Notes: a model not told the origin generated them from the letters alone. DNA of 64,000 bases from an uncultured Oscillibacter sp. (GCF_947654275.1 NZ_CANTJS010000003.1:46835-110834); one strand, 5' to 3'; numbered from the stretch's first letter, positions 15,414 through 27,130 are shown. Numbers and translations: made by a program.

Positions 15414-17483
15414 TTATTGCTCCGCCATGGCCTTGGCCTCGGCAATGGCCTTCGCCTGGGCGTCGGGCGGGCAGTCCTGATAGCGGACGAAGTGGAAGGT
15501 GAAGGAGCCCCGGCTCTGGGTCATGGCCCGGAGATCAATGGCGTAGCTGCCCATCTCGGCCATGGGGACCTCGGCGGTGATCAGCTGGGTGCCGTCGCCC
15601 AGGGGGTCCATGCCCATGGGGGTGCCCCGGCGCTTGGAGACGTCGCCCATGACCGCGCCGGCGTAGCTCTCGGGCACGGTGACCTTCAGCTCGCCGATGG
15701 GCTCCAGCAGCACGGGGTTGGCCTCGGGCATGGCGGCCTTGTAGGCCAGCTGGGCGGCGGTCTTGAAGGCGATTTCGGAGGAGTCCACCGGGTGATAGGA
15801 GCCGTCGTACAGAACGGCCTTCAGGTTCACCAGGGGATAGCCGGCCAGAGGACCGTGGAGGCAGGCCTCCCGGAGGCCCTTCTCAACAGCCGGGAAGAAG
15901 TTCCGGGGCACGGAGCCGCCGAAGACCTCCTCGGCGAAGACCATGTCCTCCTGCTCGGGGTTGTACTCGAAGCGGACCCACACGTCGCCGAACTGGCCGC
16001 TGCCGCCGGTCTGCTTCTTGTGGCGGCCCTGCTTCTGGACGGTCTTGCGGATTTTCTCACGGTAGGGGACACGGGTAGGCTTCAGCTCGGATTCCACGTT
16101 GAAGCGGCTTTTCAGCTTGCTCACCAGCACGTCCATCTGCATGTCGCCGGCGCCGGAAATCACCATCTGGCGGGTTTCGGCGTTGTTGGTCACGGTAAAG
16201 GTGGGGTCCTCCTCGTTGAGGCGGGAGAGACCCTGGGCAATCTTGTCCTCCTGGCCCCGGGTCTTGGGGACGATGGCCACGGAGTAGCAGGGCTCGGCAA
16301 AGGGAATGGGCTTGAGGGTGACGACCTTCCGCTCGTCGCAGAGGGTGTCCCCGGTCTTGATGTCCATTTTGGCAATGGCGCCGATGTCGCCGCAGACCAG
16401 TTCCTTGACCTCGGTGTTTTTCTTGCCCCGGATGGTGTAGAGCCGGCCCAGCTTCACCTTGTCGCCGGTGCGGGCGTTGACCATGGGCATGTCCGGCGTA
16501 ATGGCGCCGGAGAGCACCTTGACAAAGGAGTACTTTCCGTACTGGTCGGAGATGGTTTTGAAAACAAAGGCAGTGGGCACGCCGCCGGGGGAGACCACGA
16601 ACTCCTCGGTCTCGCCGTCGGCCTTGGTGGCCTTGTGGTAGTTGCCTTCCACAGGGTTGGGCAGCAGGTCCACGATGTTGTCCATCAGCATCAGGGAGCC
16701 CAGGCAGTTGATGGCGGAGCCGCAGAGAACGGGGAACAGGCTCAGCTCCCGGACGCCCTGCCGCAGGCCCTGGATCATCTCGGCATAGGTGAAGTCCTCG
16801 CCGCCGAAGAATTTTTCCATCAGCTCCTCGCTGGTCTCCGCCACGGATTCCTTCAGCGCGTCGTTAAACTCGGTGATGACGTCCACTTTATCGGCGGGCA
16901 GCTCAATTTCCACTCTTTTGAGCTTCTGCATCTCATAGGCCCGCTTGTTCAGCACATCAATGATGCCGGTGACTTTTTTGCCGGCGTCCCAGATGGGCAC
17001 CACCACCGGGGCGATTTTCTTGCCGAAGCGCTCCCGCAGGGCATCAAAGGTGGCGTTGTAGTCACTGTTGTCCTCATCGGTTTTGGAGATGTAGATGAAG
17101 CGGGGCATGTTCCGCTCCTCGCAGTATTTCCATGCCTTTTCCAGACCCACGGATATACCGTCCTTGGCGGAGCAGACGATGATGGCGGCGTCGGCGGCCC
17201 GGAGGGCGGCCATGGCCTCGCCGGCGAAGTCAAACGCGCCGGGGGTGTCCATCAGATTGATGCGGCTGCCCTTGTAGTCCAGGGGCGCCACGGAGGCGGA
17301 GAGGGAAATCTGGCGCTTGACCTCCTCGGGGTCATAGTCGCAGACGGTGTTTCCGTCGGCGGCGCGGCCCATCCGGTCAATGGCGCCGGTCATATAAAGA
17401 AGGCTCTCCGCCAGGGCGGTTTTACCGCTGCCGCTGTGGCCCAGCAGACAGACGTTGCGGATGTTCTGTACTGAATAGCTCAT
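15414..17483 (-). CDS. elongation factor G paralog (EF-G2/FusA2-like)
   Basis: GHSGSGKT, DTPGAFDF, domain IV/V motifs KKQTGGSGQFGDV, DGSYHPVDSSE and LLEPI; promoter TTGTAT-N17-TATAAT. Confidence 0.92.
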   Translation of the reverse strand: MSYSVQNIRNVCLLGHSGSGKTALAESLLYMTGAIDRMGRAADGNTVCDYDPEEVKRQISLSASVAPLDYKGSRINLMDTPGAFDFAGEAMAALRAADAAIIVCSAKDGISVGLEKAWKYCEERNMPRFIYISKTDEDNSDYNATFDALRERFGKKIAPVVVPIWDAGKKVTGIIDVLNKRAYEMQKLKRVEIELPADKVDVITEFNDALKESVAETSEELMEKFFGGEDFTYAEMIQGLRQGVRELSLFPVLCGSAINCLGSLMLMDNIVDLLPNPVEGNYHKATKADGETEEFVVSPGGVPTAFVFKTISDQYGKYSFVKVLSGAITPDMPMVNARTGDKVKLGRLYTIRGKKNTEVKELVCGDIGAIAKMDIKTGDTLCDERKVVTLKPIPFAEPCYSVAIVPKTRGQEDKIAQGLSRLNEEDPTFTVTNNAETRQMVISGAGDMQMDVLVSKLKSRFNVESELKPTRVPYREKIRKTVQKQGRHKKQTGGSGQFGDVWVRFEYNPEQEDMVFAEEVFGGSVPRNFFPAVEKGLREACLHGPLAGYPLVNLKAVLYDGSYHPVDSSEIAFKTAAQLAYKAAMPEANPVLLEPIGELKVTVPESYAGAVMGDVSKRRGTPMGMDPLGDGTQLITAEVPMAEMGSYAIDLRAMTQSRGSFTFHFVRYQDCPPDAQAKAIAEAKAMAEQ

Positions 17484-17687
17484 GGTCGTTCCACTCCTTA
17501 TTGTATACTGCACCGTGCGGCGGGGAGCCGCAAGCGTCCAATATATGAATTATACAACGTTCCGCCGCCAAATACAACAGAAATTTTGGCAGGTTACACA
17601 TTTTAAGCGGGAGGTGAGAAAAAGCAAAGGGATTTTCAGCAGTTCTGCCGGAAATCCAAAAAACTTTTTCCATTCCGATAATATGAT

Positions 17688-23633: not shown

Positions 23634-26315
23634 ATGAAGAAACTGGTCATGGGCATTCTGGCCCACGTGGACGCGGGGAAAACCACGCTGTCCGAGGCCC
23701 TTTTGTATCACAGCGGGGCCATCCGCCGTCTGGGCCGGGTGGACCATCAGGACGCCTTTCTGGACACCGACGCCATGGAGCGGGAGCGGGGCATCACCAT
23801 TTTTTCCAAGCAGGCGGAGCTGGAATTGGGGGACCTGTCCGTCACCCTGCTGGATACCCCCGGCCATGTGGATTTCTCCGCTGAGGCGGAGCGGGTTTTG
23901 CAGGTGCTGGACTGCGCCGTTCTGGTCGTCAGCGGCAGCGACGGCGTCCAGGCCCATACCCGGACCCTGTGGCGGCTGCTGGAGGGCTACGGCGTGCCGG
24001 TATTCCTGTTCATAAACAAGATGGACCTGGCGGGACCGGACCGGCGGGAGGCGCTTCTGGCGGAGCTGAAGCAGCGGCTGAGCGGCGGATGCACGGATTT
24101 CTCCCTGCCCGCCGGGGACCTGGCGGAGGAGGCCGCCGTCTGCGACGAGGCCGTTTTGGAGGAGTATCTGGAGACGGGACGGATGCCGGATGAGAGCCTG
24201 ACGGCCCTGATTGCCGGGCGGAAGCTGTTCCCCTGCTTCTTCGGGTCTGCCCTGCGGCTGGAGGGGGTGGAGGAATTTGTGTCCGCCCTGGAGCGCTTCG
24301 CGCCTCTTCGGACCTACCCCAAGGAATTTGGCGCGCGGGTCTTCAAGGTGGCCCGGGACGAGCGGGGGACCCGGCTCACCTATCTGAAGGTTACCGGCGG
24401 CGTCCTCCGGGTCAAGGCCCCCCTGACCAACCGCCGCCCCGACATACCGGAGGACCAGGTCTGGGAGGAGAAGGCGGACCAGATCCGCATTTACTCCGGG
24501 GCGAAATTCCGCACGGCGGAGCAGATTCCCGCCGGAACGGTGGCGGCGGTGACGGGGCTGAGCCGCACCGTGCCCGGCCAGGGTCTGGGCTGCGAGAGCG
24601 CCTGGACCGTGCCGGTGCTGGAGCCGGTTCTGACCTACCGGGTGGAAACGGACCTGGACCCCTCCTCGGCCCTGCGGAATCTCCGGCTTTTGGAGGAGGA
24701 GGACCCCTTGCTCCATGTGGTGTGGAACGAGGGGGCAAAGGAGCTCCGGGTCCAGCTGATGGGGGAGGTCCAGACCGAAATTCTGGGGCGGCGGCTGCGG
24801 GAGCGCTTCGGCATGGAGGCCTCCTTCGGCGTGGGGCAGGTGGTGTACCGGGAGACCATCGCCGCCCCCGTGGAGGGCGTGGGCCACTTCGAGCCCCTGC
24901 GGCACTATGCCGAGGTGCACCTGCTTCTGGAGCCCCTGCCCCGGGGCAGCGGACTCCGCTTTGGCTCCGTCTGCCCCGAAGACCAGCTGGACGGCCATTG
25001 GCAGCGCCTGGTCCTGACCCATCTGTGGGAGAAGTCCCATCTGGGGGTCCTCACCGGGTCCCCCATCACCGACATGCGGATTACCCTGACGGCGGGACGG
25101 GCCCACGAGAAGCACACCGAGGGCGGCGACTTCCGCCAGGCCACCTACCGGGCCGTCCGGCAGGGGCTGATGGGGGCGGAGAGCGTCCTGCTGGAACCCT
25201 GGTACGCCTTCCGGCTGGAGCTGCCCGGGGCCCAGCTGGGCCGGGCCCTCAGCGATATCCAGCAGATGGGCGGCGAAACGGAGCCGCCGGAGACTCTGGG
25301 GGAGGAGGCCGTCCTCGCCGGAGCCGCCCCGGTGGCGGCCCTGCGGGACTACGCCAGGGAGACGGCGGCCTATACCAGGGGCCAGGGCCGCCTGAGCCTC
25401 CGGCCCGACGGCTTCCGCCCCTGCGCCGGCGCGGAGGCGGTGATTGCCGCCATGGGCTATGACCCGGAGCGGGACGTGGAGAACACGCCGGACTCCGTGT
25501 TCTGCGCCCGGGGAGCGGGCTATACGGTGAAGTGGAGCGAGGTCCCCGCCTGCGCCCATGTGGACAGCGGCCTCCGGCTGAACCGGCAGGAGCCGGAGGA
25601 GGAGGCCGGGCCCCGGAGCCGGCGGTCCGGCTCCTATGCCGGAACCATTGAGCAGGACAGGGAGCTCCAGGCCATTTTTGAGCGGACCTACGGACAGGTG
25701 AAGCGCCGGGACTTCCTGCCGCCGAAGCCGCCCAGGCGGCCCGTCTCCGCCGCCGGGGAGGCGGGGGGAAAAGTTCCCATCCGGCGGCAGGCGTCGGGGC
25801 CGGAATATCTGCTGGTGGACGGGTACAACATCATTTTCGCCTGGGACGAGCTGAAGAGCATGGCCCGGGACAGCCTGGACGCCGCCCGGAAAGCCCTGTG
25901 CGACCTGCTGTGCAACTACCAGGGCTATCAGAAGTGCCACGTCATCGCCGTCTTTGACGCCTATAAGGTCCGGGGCGGCCTGGGCTCCGTGGAGAAGTAC
26001 CACAACATCCATGTGGTCTACACCAGGGAGGCGGAGACGGCGGACGCCTATATCGAGCGGGCCACCTATGAGATTGGCAGGGAGCACCGGGTGAAGGTGG
26101 CCACCTCCGACGGGCCGGAGCAGCTGATTATATTGGGCCACGGGGCTCTGCGGGTCTCCGCCTCCGCCTTCCGGGAGGAGCTGGAGCAGGTGCAGGGGCA
26201 GATTGCCGGGGCCCTGGCCCGGAACAACAGCCGGTCCTGGACCGCCGGGGCCCTCCGTTCCGCCATGGAGCGGGCGGAGGAGCGGAAAACGAAGAGGAGG
26301 AATGAACCATGCTGA
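23634..26315 (+). CDS. TetM/EF-G-like translational GTPase fused to a C-terminal YacP/Rae1-like NYN domain
   Basis: G motifs AHVDAGKTT, RGITI, DTPGH and NKMD; C-terminal YLLVDGYNIIF...VFDAY...ETADAYIE...VATSD. Confidence 0.9.
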   Translation: MKKLVMGILAHVDAGKTTLSEALLYHSGAIRRLGRVDHQDAFLDTDAMERERGITIFSKQAELELGDLSVTLLDTPGHVDFSAEAERVLQVLDCAVLVVSGSDGVQAHTRTLWRLLEGYGVPVFLFINKMDLAGPDRREALLAELKQRLSGGCTDFSLPAGDLAEEAAVCDEAVLEEYLETGRMPDESLTALIAGRKLFPCFFGSALRLEGVEEFVSALERFAPLRTYPKEFGARVFKVARDERGTRLTYLKVTGGVLRVKAPLTNRRPDIPEDQVWEEKADQIRIYSGAKFRTAEQIPAGTVAAVTGLSRTVPGQGLGCESAWTVPVLEPVLTYRVETDLDPSSALRNLRLLEEEDPLLHVVWNEGAKELRVQLMGEVQTEILGRRLRERFGMEASFGVGQVVYRETIAAPVEGVGHFEPLRHYAEVHLLLEPLPRGSGLRFGSVCPEDQLDGHWQRLVLTHLWEKSHLGVLTGSPITDMRITLTAGRAHEKHTEGGDFRQATYRAVRQGLMGAESVLLEPWYAFRLELPGAQLGRALSDIQQMGGETEPPETLGEEAVLAGAAPVAALRDYARETAAYTRGQGRLSLRPDGFRPCAGAEAVIAAMGYDPERDVENTPDSVFCARGAGYTVKWSEVPACAHVDSGLRLNRQEPEEEAGPRSRRSGSYAGTIEQDRELQAIFERTYGQVKRRDFLPPKPPRRPVSAAGEAGGKVPIRRQASGPEYLLVDGYNIIFAWDELKSMARDSLDAARKALCDLLCNYQGYQKCHVIAVFDAYKVRGGLGSVEKYHNIHVVYTREAETADAYIERATYEIGREHRVKVATSDGPEQLIILGHGALRVSASAFREELEQVQGQIAGALARNNSRSWTAGALRSAMERAEERKTKRRNEPC

Positions 26316-27092
26316 CTGTCTGCGCCGCGCTGGCCGTATGGGGCGGCTGCGTGGCCGCCCGCCGGTATCTGGACCGGACCAGCCGCCGGGAGACGGAATT
26401 TTTGGGGGGCCGGGTCCGGCTGACGGCGCTGTGGAACCCGGGGGCGGCCTTCGGGCTGCCCATACCGGAGCGGGTTTTGTCCACCGCCTCCGGCGCAGTT
26501 CTGGCGGTGCTCTGGTGTGACCGGAGGCGGTGTCCCGTAGGGGCGGGCCTGGCGCTGGGGGGCGGTCTCAGCAACCTCCGGGAGCGGCTTCGCCGGGGCC
26601 GGGTCTATGACTATGTCCGTTTTCCCCGGGCCCCCCGGCCTCTGAACCGCTATGTGTTCAATCTGGCGGACTTCGCCATTCTCGCCGGAGGGCTGGCCCT
26701 GCTGATGGGGCGGCTGCGCCGCCGCCCGCCGGTATCTGGACCGGACCAGCCGCCGGGAGACGGAATTTTTGGGGGGCCGGGTCCGGCTGACGGCGCTGTG
26801 GAACCCGGGGGCGGCCTTCGGGCTGCCCATACCGGAGCGGGTTTTGTCCACCGCCTCCGGCGCAGTTCTGGCGGTGCTCTGGTGTGACCGGAGGCGGTGT
26901 CCCGTAGGGGCGGGCCTGGCGCTGGGGGGCGGTCTCAGCAACCTCCGGGAGCGGCTTCGCCGGGGCCGGGTCTATGACTATGTCCGTTTTCCCCGGGCCC
27001 CCCGGCCTCTGAACCGCTATGTGTTCAATCTGGCGGACTTCGCCATTCTCGCCGGAGGGCTGGCCCTGCTGATGCGGCGGAAGCGCCGGTGA
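26309..27092 (+). CDS. signal peptidase II (LspA-like) locus disrupted by a 367-bp tandem duplication
   Basis: NPGAAFG, GGLSNLRER, VYDY and FNLADFAI each occur twice. The first copy runs out of frame to 26887; the second lacks the N-terminus. Confidence 0.75.
26338..27071 (+). repeat. 367-bp tandem duplication (26338-26704 and 26705-27071)
   Basis: By eye the copies differ only by TG versus CC near the start; ATG microhomology at the junctions. Confidence 0.92.
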
Positions 27093-27130
27093 GGCGGCAG
27101 GAAAAGAGAGCTCCGTGGAGCTCTCTCTGT

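What the first reader, a model, noticed from the sequence alone, without database searches (positions are those of the whole stretch)
23634..26315. Translational GTPase fused to a Rae1/YacP-type ribosome-dependent nuclease
Seen: a complete TetM/EF-G-like GTPase, a linker, and a C-terminal NYN domain with intact acidic motifs (VDGYN, VFDA, ETAD, TSD), in one 893-aa frame. Known: B. subtilis YacP/Rae1 cleaves mRNA in a ribosome-dependent way, and TetM/EF-G proteins bind the factor site next to the A site. Inference: a single-chain factor that delivers an mRNA nuclease to stalled or drug-bound ribosomes, for quality control or anti-phage translation shut-off. I recall this architecture being annotated simply as tetracycline resistance, and I know of no functional study.
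Basis: partly seen in the sequence, partly recalled or inferred. Interest (0 to 1): 0.65.

Follow-up and report, generated by a model that had tools for sequence, protein, structure and literature searches.

The report
Ribosome GTPase fused to Rae1 nuclease
One intact gene joins an EF-G/Tet-like ribosome-docking GTPase, through a flexible tether, to a Rae1-type RNA-cutting domain; the design is common in gut Clostridia, was noted in print in 2015 and 2017 but never tested, and most likely cuts mRNA on stalled or collided ribosomes rather than giving tetracycline resistance.

Summary
Window 23634-26315 (+) is one 893-aa frame with all five EF-G-type domains and a full NYN_YacP domain (E 2.7e-48), and both catalytic centres are intact.

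It is not a tetracycline ribosomal protection protein. It scores 381 bits against the 775-bit NCBIfam cut-off, is 24-31% identical to TetM/O/B(P) and a Tet(36)-like protein, and lacks their YSPVSTP loop. It belongs to a large sister clade, and about 81% of the 150 best 50%-cluster representatives are fused.

The fusion is the only YacP domain in this genome. No genome examined has both a fused and a stand-alone copy. In the window's order, 35 of 141 genomes have the domain, all of them fused.

AlphaFold2 gives two confident bodies joined by a roughly 75-residue, mostly disordered tether.

Best reading (about 0.6): this is the lineage's Rae1. The GTPase anchors the nuclease at the ribosomal factor site, and the nuclease cuts mRNA at stalled or collided ribosomes, feeding tmRNA rescue.

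There is no support for an anti-phage role. The architecture was published in 2015 and 2017 without any functional test, so the find is not new, but it offers a good experimental handle on how Rae1 recognises ribosomes.

The parts
23634..26315 (+). Whole fused gene (893 aa plus stop): Tet-like/EF-G-like trGTPase, tether, Rae1/YacP NYN nuclease
   Evidence: ORF; domain scan; 98% identical cluster named 'GTP-binding protein [Oscillibacter sp.]'
23646..24305 (+). G domain (residues 5-224). It lacks the G' insert of EF-G. G1 is AHVDAGKTT, G2 is RGIT, G3 is DTPGH with the catalytic His78, and G4 is NKMD
   Evidence: Pfam PF00009 at 9.6e-50. One-stretch alignment to TetO/TetM against two stretches to EF-G. 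K16, T55, D74, K129 and D131 are kept in 122/122 and H78 in 121/122 fused representatives; G4 N128 is N in 114/122, otherwise T or S
24327..24830 (+). Domains II and III (residues 232-399)
   Evidence: PF22042 (below its gathering score) and PF14492; confident AF2 model
24834..25178 (+). Domain IV (residues 401-515) with a clade-specific tip: EGVGHFEPLRHYAEV (H418, E420, P421, L422, H424) and RAHEKHTEGGDFR (H491, K493, H494, D499). It has neither the RPP loop YSPVSTP nor the EF-G loops GGxGQ / SYHEVDS
   Evidence: PF03764; alignments; H418, E420, H424, H494 and D499 kept in 122/122 fused representatives and 27-28/28 unfused ones; this is among the most conserved parts of the protein
25185..25433 (+). 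Domain V (residues 518-600)
   Evidence: PF00679
25434..25583 (+). Conserved post-domain-V module (residues 601-650): GYDPERDVENTPDSVFCxxGAGYxVxW. It is a small folded helix plus beta-hairpin unit that belongs to the GTPase clade, is kept in unfused members, and is unlike TetM's C-terminal helix
   Evidence: Conservation; the unfused L. salivarius protein ends right after it; AF2 pLDDT 91-96; no Pfam or PDB sequence match
25584..25802 (+). Tether (residues 651-723): two variable, low-complexity, basic, disordered stretches (652-674 and 690-715) flanking one conserved amphipathic helix (671-686, motif ELxxIFExTYG)
   Evidence: AF2 pLDDT below 50 in both stretches and helix 671-686 at about 61-65; column identity 0.18-0.19 in the linkers against 0.39 for the 676-700 block that overlaps the helix; motif seen
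25803..26312 (+). Rae1/YacP-type NYN nuclease (residues 724-893): catalytic D729 (DGYN), D775 (FDAY), D804 (TAD) and D826 (TSD), followed by two long C-terminal helices and a basic tail
   Evidence: PF05991 at 2.7e-48; aligned to B. subtilis YacP 5MQ8/5MQ9; the Asp residues are kept in 119-121 of 122 fused representatives; AF2 is confident, with helices 843-869 and 873-890
26309..27092 (+). Downstream lspA-like (Peptidase_A8) ORFs. The first ATG overlaps the fusion's stop. This is probably the same transcription unit in this genome only, and is not a conserved partner
   Evidence: ORFs; Pfam; terminator-like hairpin at 27105-27126; no conserved synteny in 20 other loci

Best explanation
The gene encodes this lineage's version of the ribosome-associated endoribonuclease Rae1. 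It is built as one chain with its own ribosome anchor. The N-terminal 650 residues are an active translational GTPase of a distinct clade that is sister to the tetracycline RPPs and lacks the G' insert. In the GTP form it would dock in the ribosomal factor-binding site and push its clade-specific domain-IV tip towards the decoding centre, thereby reading the state of a stalled or translocation-blocked ribosome. The roughly 75-residue flexible basic tether, with one conserved helix, then lets the C-terminal NYN domain reach the mRNA and cut it. By analogy with B. subtilis Rae1, the cut would fall at the trailing edge of the stalled ribosome, in the junction with the collided one. The truncated mRNA would then be handed to tmRNA/SmpB for rescue (the 'CART' logic), and GTP hydrolysis would release the factor. 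What is shown: the architecture, conservation of both active sites, mutual exclusivity with free Rae1, the non-RPP domain IV, the tethered geometry, and the presence of tmRNA and MutS2 in the genome. What is inferred: ribosome binding at the factor site, mRNA as the substrate, the cleavage position, which ribosome of a collided pair is bound, and the role of GTP hydrolysis.
For: (1) Both halves are intact and under purifying selection. In 122 fused representatives clustered at 50% identity, the GTPase residues K16, T55, D74, K129 and D131 are kept in 122 and H78 in 121, and the four NYN aspartates in 119-121. Identity is about 50% over the full length across about 17 families. (2) The NYN part aligns with experimentally characterised Rae1/YacP (5MQ8/5MQ9, E 1.7e-25) and keeps all acidic motifs. 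(3) It is the only NYN_YacP domain in this 93%-complete genome, and the canonical rlmB-yacP-sigH slot is dissolved. (4) Fused and stand-alone forms did not co-occur in any genome examined. Nearly every genome with the domain has one copy, and the four two-hit genomes I re-examined show only sub-threshold or contig-split second hits. In the own order, 35 of 35 carriers are fused. This is the pattern expected if the fusion replaces free Rae1. (5) The GTPase and NYN trees show the same groupings, and the nearest relatives come from the same family and order, consistent with one old fusion that is inherited vertically. (6) AF2 gives a confident EF-G-like body (Foldseek best matches are ribosome-bound EF-G, E 1e-53) and a confident NYN domain, joined by a disordered tether. 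[quoted passage not shown] (8) The partner machinery is present in this genome: tmRNA and MutS2. An RqcH-like ORF lies next to mrnC; I assigned it from its N-terminal sequence by eye and did not run a family scan on it.
Against: No experiment exists on any member of the family. The function is transferred from a B. subtilis protein that is 35-49% identical in the NYN part. The factor-binding site and the Rae1 cleavage position (the mRNA exit side of the stalled ribosome) are not adjacent on one ribosome, so the model needs either the long tether or binding to the trailing ribosome, and neither has been tested. About 13% of clade clusters are unfused GTPases, including one next to ISSag10/lnu(C) on a Lactobacillales megaplasmid, so the GTPase has some activity of its own that I cannot name. 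106 of 141 genomes in the order lack any YacP domain, so the function is dispensable. No conserved neighbour supports a pathway assignment.
Confidence: 0.6

Rival explanations
1. It is a ribosomal protection protein, against tetracycline or another A-site drug, that has picked up a nuclease. The GTPase would dislodge the drug and the NYN domain would be accessory. This is the idea floated by Atkinson in 2015.
For: Its best NCBIfam match is tet_protect (381 bits). It lacks G' as RPPs do. In the tree its clade is sister to the RPPs. An unfused member sits next to a mobile lnu(C) unit on a megaplasmid. Some sources name it a Tet RPP.
Against: The score is under half of the 775-bit cut-off, and every specific Tet model also fails. 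Identity to TetM/O/B(P) and a Tet(36)-like protein is only 24-31%, the same as to EF-G. The loop that RPPs share (Y/F-SP-V/A-STP-ADFR) is replaced by an invariant AHxKHTxGGDFR, and the C-terminal extension is different. The gene is chromosomal and single-copy, its tree follows taxonomy, and it has no mobile context in the window. Intact NYN aspartates in about 98% of fused clusters argue that the nuclease is the point of the protein.
Confidence: 0.08
2. The nuclease acts on stable RNA or on the ribosome itself. This could be rRNA or tRNA maturation (the original 2006 proposal for YacP) or GTPase-guided cleavage of rRNA or tRNA to inactivate or clear damaged or idle ribosomes.
For: Stand-alone yacP lies among rRNA and tRNA processing genes (cysS-mrnC-rlmB-yacP; Matelska 2017). 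A factor-site GTPase places a tethered nuclease close to 16S/23S rRNA and tRNAs as well as to mRNA. The substrate has not been determined for any fused member.
Against: For B. subtilis Rae1, the only substrates described in the papers I read are translated mRNAs. The fused gene has left the rRNA-processing operon and has no conserved neighbours.
Confidence: 0.12
3. It is an anti-phage, abortive-infection or toxin-like translation shut-off factor.
For: It combines a nuclease with an NTPase, and ribosome-targeting nucleases occur in defence systems.
Against: There is no PADLOC match for it and no defence genes nearby. There are no mobile-element genes among the neighbours and no conserved partner, antitoxin or sensor. 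The domain is single-copy in nearly every genome that has it, and the protein tree follows taxonomy at about 50% identity across families. It substitutes one-for-one for housekeeping Rae1.
Confidence: 0.03
4. The two halves work independently and the fusion only serves co-expression. The GTPase would have its own ribosomal role, as the unfused clade members do, and the NYN domain would act as free Rae1 does.
For: Unfused GTPases of the clade exist, and some genomes carry one together with a separate free Rae1 at another locus (G036, G648, G672, G722). The tether is long and disordered, and I could not test for a predicted interface because no coordinates were available.
Against: The fusion is stable across at least 122 clusters at 50% identity. 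In the alignment of 21 fused proteins all 20 others keep a tether of similar length, and about half carry the ELxxIFExTYG helix while the rest carry a related variant. Re-splitting into adjacent genes was not seen among the 20 loci. Covalent tethering to a ribosome-binding factor necessarily raises the local concentration of the nuclease at the ribosome.
Confidence: 0.1

Closest known systems
Rae1 / YacP of Bacillus subtilis (ribosome-associated endoribonuclease 1; Pfam PF05991; PDB 5MQ8/5MQ9)
   Same: The C-terminal 170 residues are a full NYN_YacP domain with the GYN motif, all four catalytic aspartates and the two C-terminal helices. The fusion is the only such domain in the genome and is mutually exclusive with free Rae1. 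The tmRNA partner is present.
   Different: Rae1 is a free protein of about 170 aa in the rlmB-yacP-sigH operon, and its ribosome binding is transient. Here the domain is the C-terminus of an 893-aa trGTPase at an unrelated locus. Stand-alone Rae1 proteins of the phylum sample are 35-49% identical to the NYN part.
Tetracycline ribosomal protection proteins (TetM, TetO, TetW, TetB(P), Otr(A); NCBIfam NF012153)
   Same: It shares the five-domain EF-G-like body without the G' subdomain. It is colinear with TetO/TetM over residues 1-599. Its clade is sister to the RPPs when the tree is rooted on EF-G.
   Different: Identity is 24-31%. The NCBIfam score is 381 against a 775 cut-off. The domain-IV loop YSPVSTP is absent and the C-terminal extension is different. 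The gene is chromosomal and carries a nuclease.
Elongation factor G (fusA)
   Same: It has the same fold, and its best Foldseek matches are ribosome-bound EF-G. All GTPase motifs are present, including the catalytic His. A histidine aligns with the EF-G domain-IV His.
   Different: It has no G' insert, and domain-IV loop I is 4 residues shorter and lacks GGxGQ. Identity is 28%. The genome has a canonical fusA-tuf pair elsewhere, on contig C94.
SmrB (E. coli), Cue2 and NONU-1: SMR-domain nucleases of collided ribosomes
   Same: The proposed job is the same: endonucleolytic cleavage of mRNA at collided ribosomes, which creates a tmRNA substrate.
   Different: The nuclease fold is unrelated (NYN, not SMR). 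Recruitment would be by a factor-site GTPase rather than by contacts at the collision interface. This is an analogy only.
The 'Tet-NYN' / 'TetM_like-NYN_YacP' architecture noted by Atkinson 2015 (PMC4342817) and Matelska et al. 2017 (PMC5499597)
   Same: It is the same architecture, and this gene is a member.
   Different: Those surveys knew of about ten species or 'some Clostridia' and left the function open, leaning towards tetracycline resistance. Here the family has well over 150 clusters at 50% identity, is the only form of YacP in the window's order, and is separable from the RPPs.

Membership tests
Rae1/YacP (NYN_YacP, PF05991) | Match to PF05991 above the gathering score | tested here: met
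   164.6 bits against a 24.6 cut-off, residues 726-882
Rae1/YacP (NYN_YacP, PF05991) | GYN motif after the first Asp, and four conserved catalytic Asp residues | tested here: met
   DGYN (D729), FDAY (D775), TAD (D804) and TSD (D826), aligned to 5MQ8/5MQ9. They are kept in 119-121 of 122 fused cluster representatives
Rae1/YacP (NYN_YacP, PF05991) | Two C-terminal helices with basic residues after the nuclease core (Matelska 2017) | tested here: met
   AF2 helices 843-869 and 873-890 with a basic tail RKTKRR. The sequence of this part is variable
Rae1/YacP (NYN_YacP, PF05991) | Free single-domain protein of about 170 aa in the cysS-mrnC-rlmB-yacP-sigH context | tested here: not met
   It is fused to a 650-aa GTPase at an unrelated locus. 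The canonical context was seen in 6 other genomes and is dissolved in the window's genome
Rae1/YacP (NYN_YacP, PF05991) | Translation-dependent cleavage of mRNA upstream of stalled or collided ribosomes | not testable with these tools
   Known only for B. subtilis Rae1
Tetracycline ribosomal protection proteins (NF012153 tet_protect) | Score above the curated NCBIfam cut-off | tested here: not met
   381.2 bits against 775. The Otr(A), TetM/W/O/S, TetQ and TetM models are also all far below their cut-offs
Tetracycline ribosomal protection proteins (NF012153 tet_protect) | Domain-IV loop that contacts and dislodges tetracycline (Y/F-S-P-V/A-S-T-P-ADFR in TetM, TetO, TetB(P) and the Tet(36)-like protein) | tested here: not met
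   It is replaced by RAHEKHTEGGDFR, which is invariant in the clade. The role of this loop is taken from Atkinson 2015 and from my own knowledge of the TetM-ribosome structure 3J9Y
Tetracycline ribosomal protection proteins (NF012153 tet_protect) | EF-G-like body without the G' subdomain | tested here: met
   Single-stretch alignment to TetO/TetM over 1-599; alignment
Tetracycline ribosomal protection proteins (NF012153 tet_protect) | Falls inside the RPP clade | tested here: not met
   It forms a separate clade (SH-aLRT 98-100, stem length 1.08) that is sister to the RPP clade (99). This is a quick tree of 28 rows, and the program issued a long-branch warning
Tetracycline ribosomal protection proteins (NF012153 tet_protect) | Confers tetracycline resistance | not testable with these tools
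   No report found
Elongation factor G | NCBIfam EF-G equivalog cut-off, G' insert, and domain-IV loop I GGxGQ(Y/F)G | tested here: not met
   TIGR00484 scores 255 against 659. There is no G' insert and loop I is 4 residues shorter. The true fusA lies next to tuf on contig C94
Fused Tet-like GTPase-NYN_YacP family (architecture of Atkinson 2015 and Matelska 2017) | One chain carrying GTP_EFTU, EFG_III/IV/C and a C-terminal NYN_YacP | tested here: met
   All 120 best homologues share this architecture
Fused Tet-like GTPase-NYN_YacP family (architecture of Atkinson 2015 and Matelska 2017) | Clade signatures defined here: GH(F/Y)EPLRHYAEV, KHTxGGDFR, the post-V module SVFCxxGxG(F/Y)xVxW, and the tether helix | tested here: met
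   The window protein is 48-64% identical to 20 members from about 17 families
Known anti-phage defence systems (PADLOC-DB 2.0) | Match of the protein or its neighbours to a defence-system model | tested here: not met
   No hit for the fusion. The only hits are generic HTH matches on a neighbouring gene

The most novel reading that the evidence does not exclude
In the window's order, and in at least about a third of the YacP-carrying genomes sampled from its class, this fusion is the cell's only Rae1. It would work as a GTP-gated collision nuclease. [quoted passage not shown] Its invariant His/Glu-rich domain-IV tip would read the decoding centre. The leash would deliver the NYN domain to the inter-ribosome mRNA. 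The fusion would then be a 'Rosetta stone' showing that Rae1-type nucleases are recruited via the translation-factor site. Locked with GDPNP or with a His78 mutant, it would give the first stable ribosome-Rae1 complex for structure determination.
Probability: 0.4. Interest if true: 0.72.

Novelty: new member of a known kind. Interest (0 to 1): 0.52.

Why it matters
Rae1-mediated cleavage at collided ribosomes, followed by tmRNA rescue, was worked out in B. subtilis only in 2025-2026. How Rae1 recognises ribosomes is still open because its binding is too transient to capture.

Nature has covalently tied the same nuclease to a factor-site GTPase in a large part of the gut Clostridia. If the proposed mechanism holds, three things follow:

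- The fusion points to where on the ribosome this nuclease family works.
- It offers a complex that can be locked with a non-hydrolysable GTP analogue for cryo-EM.
- It defines a third functional class of EF-G-like factors beside translocases and drug-protection proteins.

There is also a practical consequence. Source names for these proteins include 'TetM/TetW/TetO/TetS family tetracycline resistance ribosomal protection protein'. If that label is widespread, resistome surveys of gut metagenomes may over-count tetracycline resistance. The sequence evidence here (score below cut-off, missing RPP loop, separate clade) argues against that label.

Tried and rejected
- Conserved operon partner: all-against-all comparison of flanking ORFs in 21 loci found nothing shared.
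- ylmH next to the fusion (a lead from earlier scan notes): by eye, none of the downstream ORFs in 20 loci from about 17 families resembles ylmH, and in the window the downstream gene is lspA-like. The link must be lineage-specific.
- HTH co-expression (Matelska 2017): HTH_3 genes lie nearby in the window, but none was shared across the other loci.
- Defence-system membership: no PADLOC hit.
- Genomes with both a fused and a free copy: the four two-hit genomes I re-examined have second hits that are sub-threshold (21 bits) or are one gene split across contigs.
- Sequence similarity of the post-V module and tether to anything solved: none.
- tmRNA by ARAGORN: a false negative. Rfam RF00023 finds it at 140 bits.
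- Domain contacts in the AF2 model: coordinates are not exposed to the sandbox, so I cannot say whether the NYN domain or the tether helix docks on the GTPase.
- A 2026 doxycycline-evolution paper that mentions NYN: irrelevant, a single low-frequency variant.
- Promoter scan: no convincing sigma-70 site upstream of the gene.
Full report
**1. Observation**

One search lists a single uninterrupted ORF at 23634..26315 on the + strand. It is 893 aa long, starts with ATG, and has a GGAG-type Shine-Dalgarno sequence immediately upstream.

Pfam finds these domains:

| Domain | Residues | E-value |
|---|---|---|
| GTP_EFTU | 5-224 | 9.6e-50 |
| EF-G_D2 | 232-312 | 0.00024 |
| EFG_III | 345-399 | 1.3e-07 |
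| EFG_IV | 401-515 | 3.7e-18 |
| EFG_C | 518-600 | 1.3e-13 |
| NYN_YacP | 726-882 | 2.7e-48 |

- They align position by position with the crystallised B. subtilis YacP/Rae1, PDB 5MQ8/5MQ9 (E 1.7e-25).

**2. The GTPase half is not a tetracycline resistance protein**

*NCBIfam scores.* The best model is tet_protect, but at 381 bits against a curated cut-off of 775. Every specific Tet model and every EF-G model is also far below its cut-off.

*Solved structures.* The GTPase half aligns in one stretch with TetO/TetM, so it has no G' insert. It aligns in two stretches with EF-G.

*Direct alignment with reference proteins.*
- I fetched TetM, TetO, TetB(P) and a Tet(36)-like protein from annotated plasmids, plus the host's own EF-G. 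Identity is 24-31% to the RPPs and 28% to EF-G.
- The RPPs share the domain-IV loop Y/F-SP-V/A-STP-ADFR. Atkinson identifies the domain-IV tip loops as what dislodges tetracycline.
- The window protein has RAHEKHTEGGDFR at that position.
- Its loop I reads GHFEPLRHYAEV. This lacks EF-G's GGxGQ insertion and differs from the RPP sequence.
- After domain V it carries a conserved module of about 50 residues (GYDPE.D.EN..DSVFC..GAGY.V.W) in place of TetM's short C-terminal helix.

*Tree rooted on EF-G.*
- The fused GTPases form one clade (SH-aLRT 98). An unfused Ligilactobacillus protein is its sister (100, stem length 1.08). This group is separate from the RPP clade (99).
- This is a quick tree of 28 rows, and the program warned about long branches. 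The clade separation also shows in bit scores: at least 570 bits within the clade against roughly 220-280 bits for RPPs.

**3. Size and shape of the family**

- *Close homologues.* All 120 best homologues in the 5.8-billion-protein collection have the same architecture, are 879-897 aa long and are 76-98% identical.
- *Exhaustive search.* I searched the GTPase part alone against 1.84 billion 50%-identity representatives. Of the 150 best, 122 are at least 800 aa long (fused). About 20 of the other 28 are genuine unfused proteins that stop just after the post-V module.
- *Conservation across families.* I fetched 20 fused loci from about 17 families of the class. Every one has the complete frame (848-899 aa) and is 48-64% identical to the window protein. 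Domain IV (0.70-0.81 column identity) is as conserved as the G domain.
- *Catalytic residues in the 122 fused representatives:*
  - K16, T55, D74, K129 and D131 are present in 122, and the catalytic H78 in 121. G4 N128 is N in 114 and T or S in the rest.
  - The NYN aspartates D729, D775, D804 and D826 are present in 120, 120, 119 and 121.
  - The domain-IV residues H418, E420, H424, H494 and D499 are present in all 122, and in 27-28 of the 28 short representatives.

Both activities and the domain-IV tip are therefore under purifying selection.

**4. Relation to free Rae1**

*The window's genome.* The fusion is the only NYN_YacP domain in this genome of 3.05 Mb, 111 contigs and 93% completeness.

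*Class sample.*
- In 399 scored genomes of the class, 263 have the domain, nearly always as one copy.
- Of the 150 listed matches I counted about 85 in frames of 845-934 aa and about 63 in frames of 169-216 aa.
- The remaining 113 matches were not listed, so the fused share is at least one third and is 57% of those seen.
- The four two-hit genomes I re-examined have only sub-threshold second hits or one gene split over two contigs.
- No genome examined carries both forms.

*Order sample.* In the window's own order, 35 of 141 genomes have the domain. All 35 are in long frames, none is free, and 106 have none. In the window's family 7 of 9 have it.

*Phylum sample.*
- Outside the class, free Rae1 predominates. 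Fused forms still occur in at least eight further families.
- Four genomes carry an unfused clade GTPase and a free Rae1 at separate loci.

*Genomic context.*
- Free yacP sits in the canonical cysS-mrnC-rlmB-yacP-sigH-tuf-nusG-rplKA context in six complete genomes.
- In the window's genome those genes are scattered. rlmB is followed by an unrelated 861-aa ORF, and sigH is preceded by a glmM-like ORF (assigned by eye).

*Trees.*
- The NYN tree and the GTPase tree show the same internal groupings. The window's nearest relatives come from its own family and order.
- This is consistent with one old fusion inherited vertically, with losses.
- Support for monophyly of the fused NYN domains is weak (64).

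**5. Structure**

- *Model quality.* AlphaFold2 on a 68-sequence alignment gives a mean pLDDT of 89.6 and a pTM of 0.70.
- *Segments:*
  - Residues 1-650 are confident, including the post-V module (a helix, a beta-hairpin at 621-632 and two short helices).
  - Residues 652-674 and 690-715 have pLDDT below 50. They flank a lone helix at 671-686, the conserved ELxxIFExTYG motif, with pLDDT about 61-65.
  - Residues 724-890 form a confident NYN fold with two long C-terminal helices.
- *Fold search.* Foldseek's best PDB matches are ribosome-bound EF-G structures (E 1e-53).

The nuclease is therefore a flexibly tethered passenger on an EF-G-shaped body. I could not inspect inter-domain contacts.

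**6. Context**

- *Neighbours.* The neighbouring genes are ordinary:
  - a beta-lactamase-family hydrolase
  - an HTH_3 protein
  - an HGSNAT-type membrane acyltransferase
  - a TM1586-type nitroreductase
  - the fusion itself
  - two lspA-like ORFs
  - a divergent HTH_3 gene
  - a DHH-Sel1 protein
- *No defence or operon link.* There is no PADLOC hit. No flanking gene is shared among 21 loci. There is no ylmH next to the gene in any of them.
- *Rescue machinery.* The genome has tmRNA and a MutS2-like 802-aa frame with a C-terminal Smr domain. It also has an RqcH-like ORF next to mrnC, which I assigned from its N-terminal sequence by eye. The usual rescue machinery is therefore in place.

**7. 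Mechanism**

*What is known about Rae1.*
- It needs two to three collided ribosomes.
- It generates substrates for trans-translation.
- No ribosome-bound structure exists, because binding is transient.

*Most economical reading of the fusion.*
- The GTPase supplies the missing affinity and state-specificity by docking in the factor site.
- The tether lets the NYN domain reach the mRNA.
- GTP hydrolysis times release.

*Two geometries are possible, and I cannot separate them:*
- The GTPase binds the stalled ribosome, which has an empty A site as TetM's substrate does. The tether of about 75 residues wraps round the 30S subunit to the mRNA exit.
- The GTPase binds the trailing, translocation-blocked ribosome as EF-G would. 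That ribosome's mRNA entry lies beside the factor site and faces the inter-ribosome mRNA where Rae1 cuts.

These steps are inferences from family knowledge and are not shown here. I put the overall reading at about 0.6.

*Rivals:*

| Rival explanation | Confidence |
|---|---|
| Drug protection | 0.08 |
| Stable-RNA or ribosome-directed cleavage | 0.12 |
| Independent halves | 0.10 |
| Defence or toxin | 0.03 |

**8. Novelty**

[quoted passage not shown] Matelska et al. [quoted passage not shown]
- *No functional work found.* I found no functional study in four full-text searches. None of the three 2025-2026 Rae1 papers I searched for these terms mentions the fusion.
- *Earlier scan notes.* The same architecture has been flagged 147 times elsewhere in this scan. 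I treat those notes as leads only, and I had reached my reading before seeing them.
  - the scale of the family
  - the strict mutual exclusivity with free Rae1
  - the separation from true RPPs at the level of defining residues
  - the clade-specific domain-IV and post-V signatures
  - the tethered geometry
  - the link to the new collision-rescue literature

**Verdict.** This is a real, ordinary member of a described but untested family. Interest is moderate, mainly as an experimental handle and as a correction of a mis-annotation.

Noticed in passing
window 15414-17513 (-): A second EF-G-like paralogue lies 6 kb upstream of the fusion. Its G1 motif is degenerate (GHSGSGKT) and it has DTPGA in place of DTPGH, so it lacks the catalytic histidine. 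It is 35% identical to the genome's canonical EF-G. It may be a GTPase-impaired EF-G2-type factor.
   Followed up: partly
window 26338-26637 and 26705-27004: A 300-nt direct repeat, 99% identical and spaced 367 nt apart, duplicates most of the lspA-like (signal peptidase II) gene directly downstream of the fusion. It produces two overlapping Peptidase_A8 ORFs (26309-26887 and 26769-27092). This is either a real tandem duplication or an assembly artefact.
   Followed up: partly
L031 4001-5920 (Ligilactobacillus salivarius megaplasmid CP104730): An unfused 639-aa member of the same GTPase clade, 48-49% identical, keeps the post-V module. It is annotated as a TetM/W/O/S-family RPP but was not called a resistance gene by AMRFinder. 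It lies about 1.5 kb from an ISSag10-lnu(C) unit, so a clade member occurs in a mobile context outside Clostridia.
   Followed up: partly
window residues H418, E420, H424, H491, K493, H494 (nt 24885-25115): An invariant His/Glu/Lys cluster sits at the domain-IV tip, in 122/122 fused and 27-28/28 unfused representatives for H418, E420, H424 and H494. It has no counterpart in EF-G or the RPPs. I cannot say what it recognises or does in the decoding centre.
   Followed up: partly
own genome, contig C78 7074-9266 (outside the window): mrnC (Mini-III) is immediately followed by a 580-aa ORF whose N-terminus looks like RqcH/NFACT, assigned by eye without a family scan. The canonical cysS-mrnC-rlmB-yacP-sigH cluster is dispersed over contigs C18, C78, C62 and C9.
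   Followed up: partly
L019 about 5936 onward (+, oriented with the fused gene): In one family an ABC-F-type ATPase gene starts 4 nt after the fused gene's stop. ABC-F proteins are also ribosome-binding factors. This is a single case, assigned by eye from the sequence, and I did not follow it up.
   Followed up: no
order-level sample: 75% of high-quality genomes in the window's order (106 of 141) have no YacP/Rae1 domain at all, fused or free, so this branch of ribosome rescue is frequently lost in the order.
   Followed up: partly
G036, G648, G672, G722: These genomes carry an unfused GTPase of this clade (487-660 aa frames) and also a free Rae1 (170-204 aa) at a different locus. This is a 'split' state that could be ancestral to the fusion or could mean the two act in trans.
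   Followed up: no
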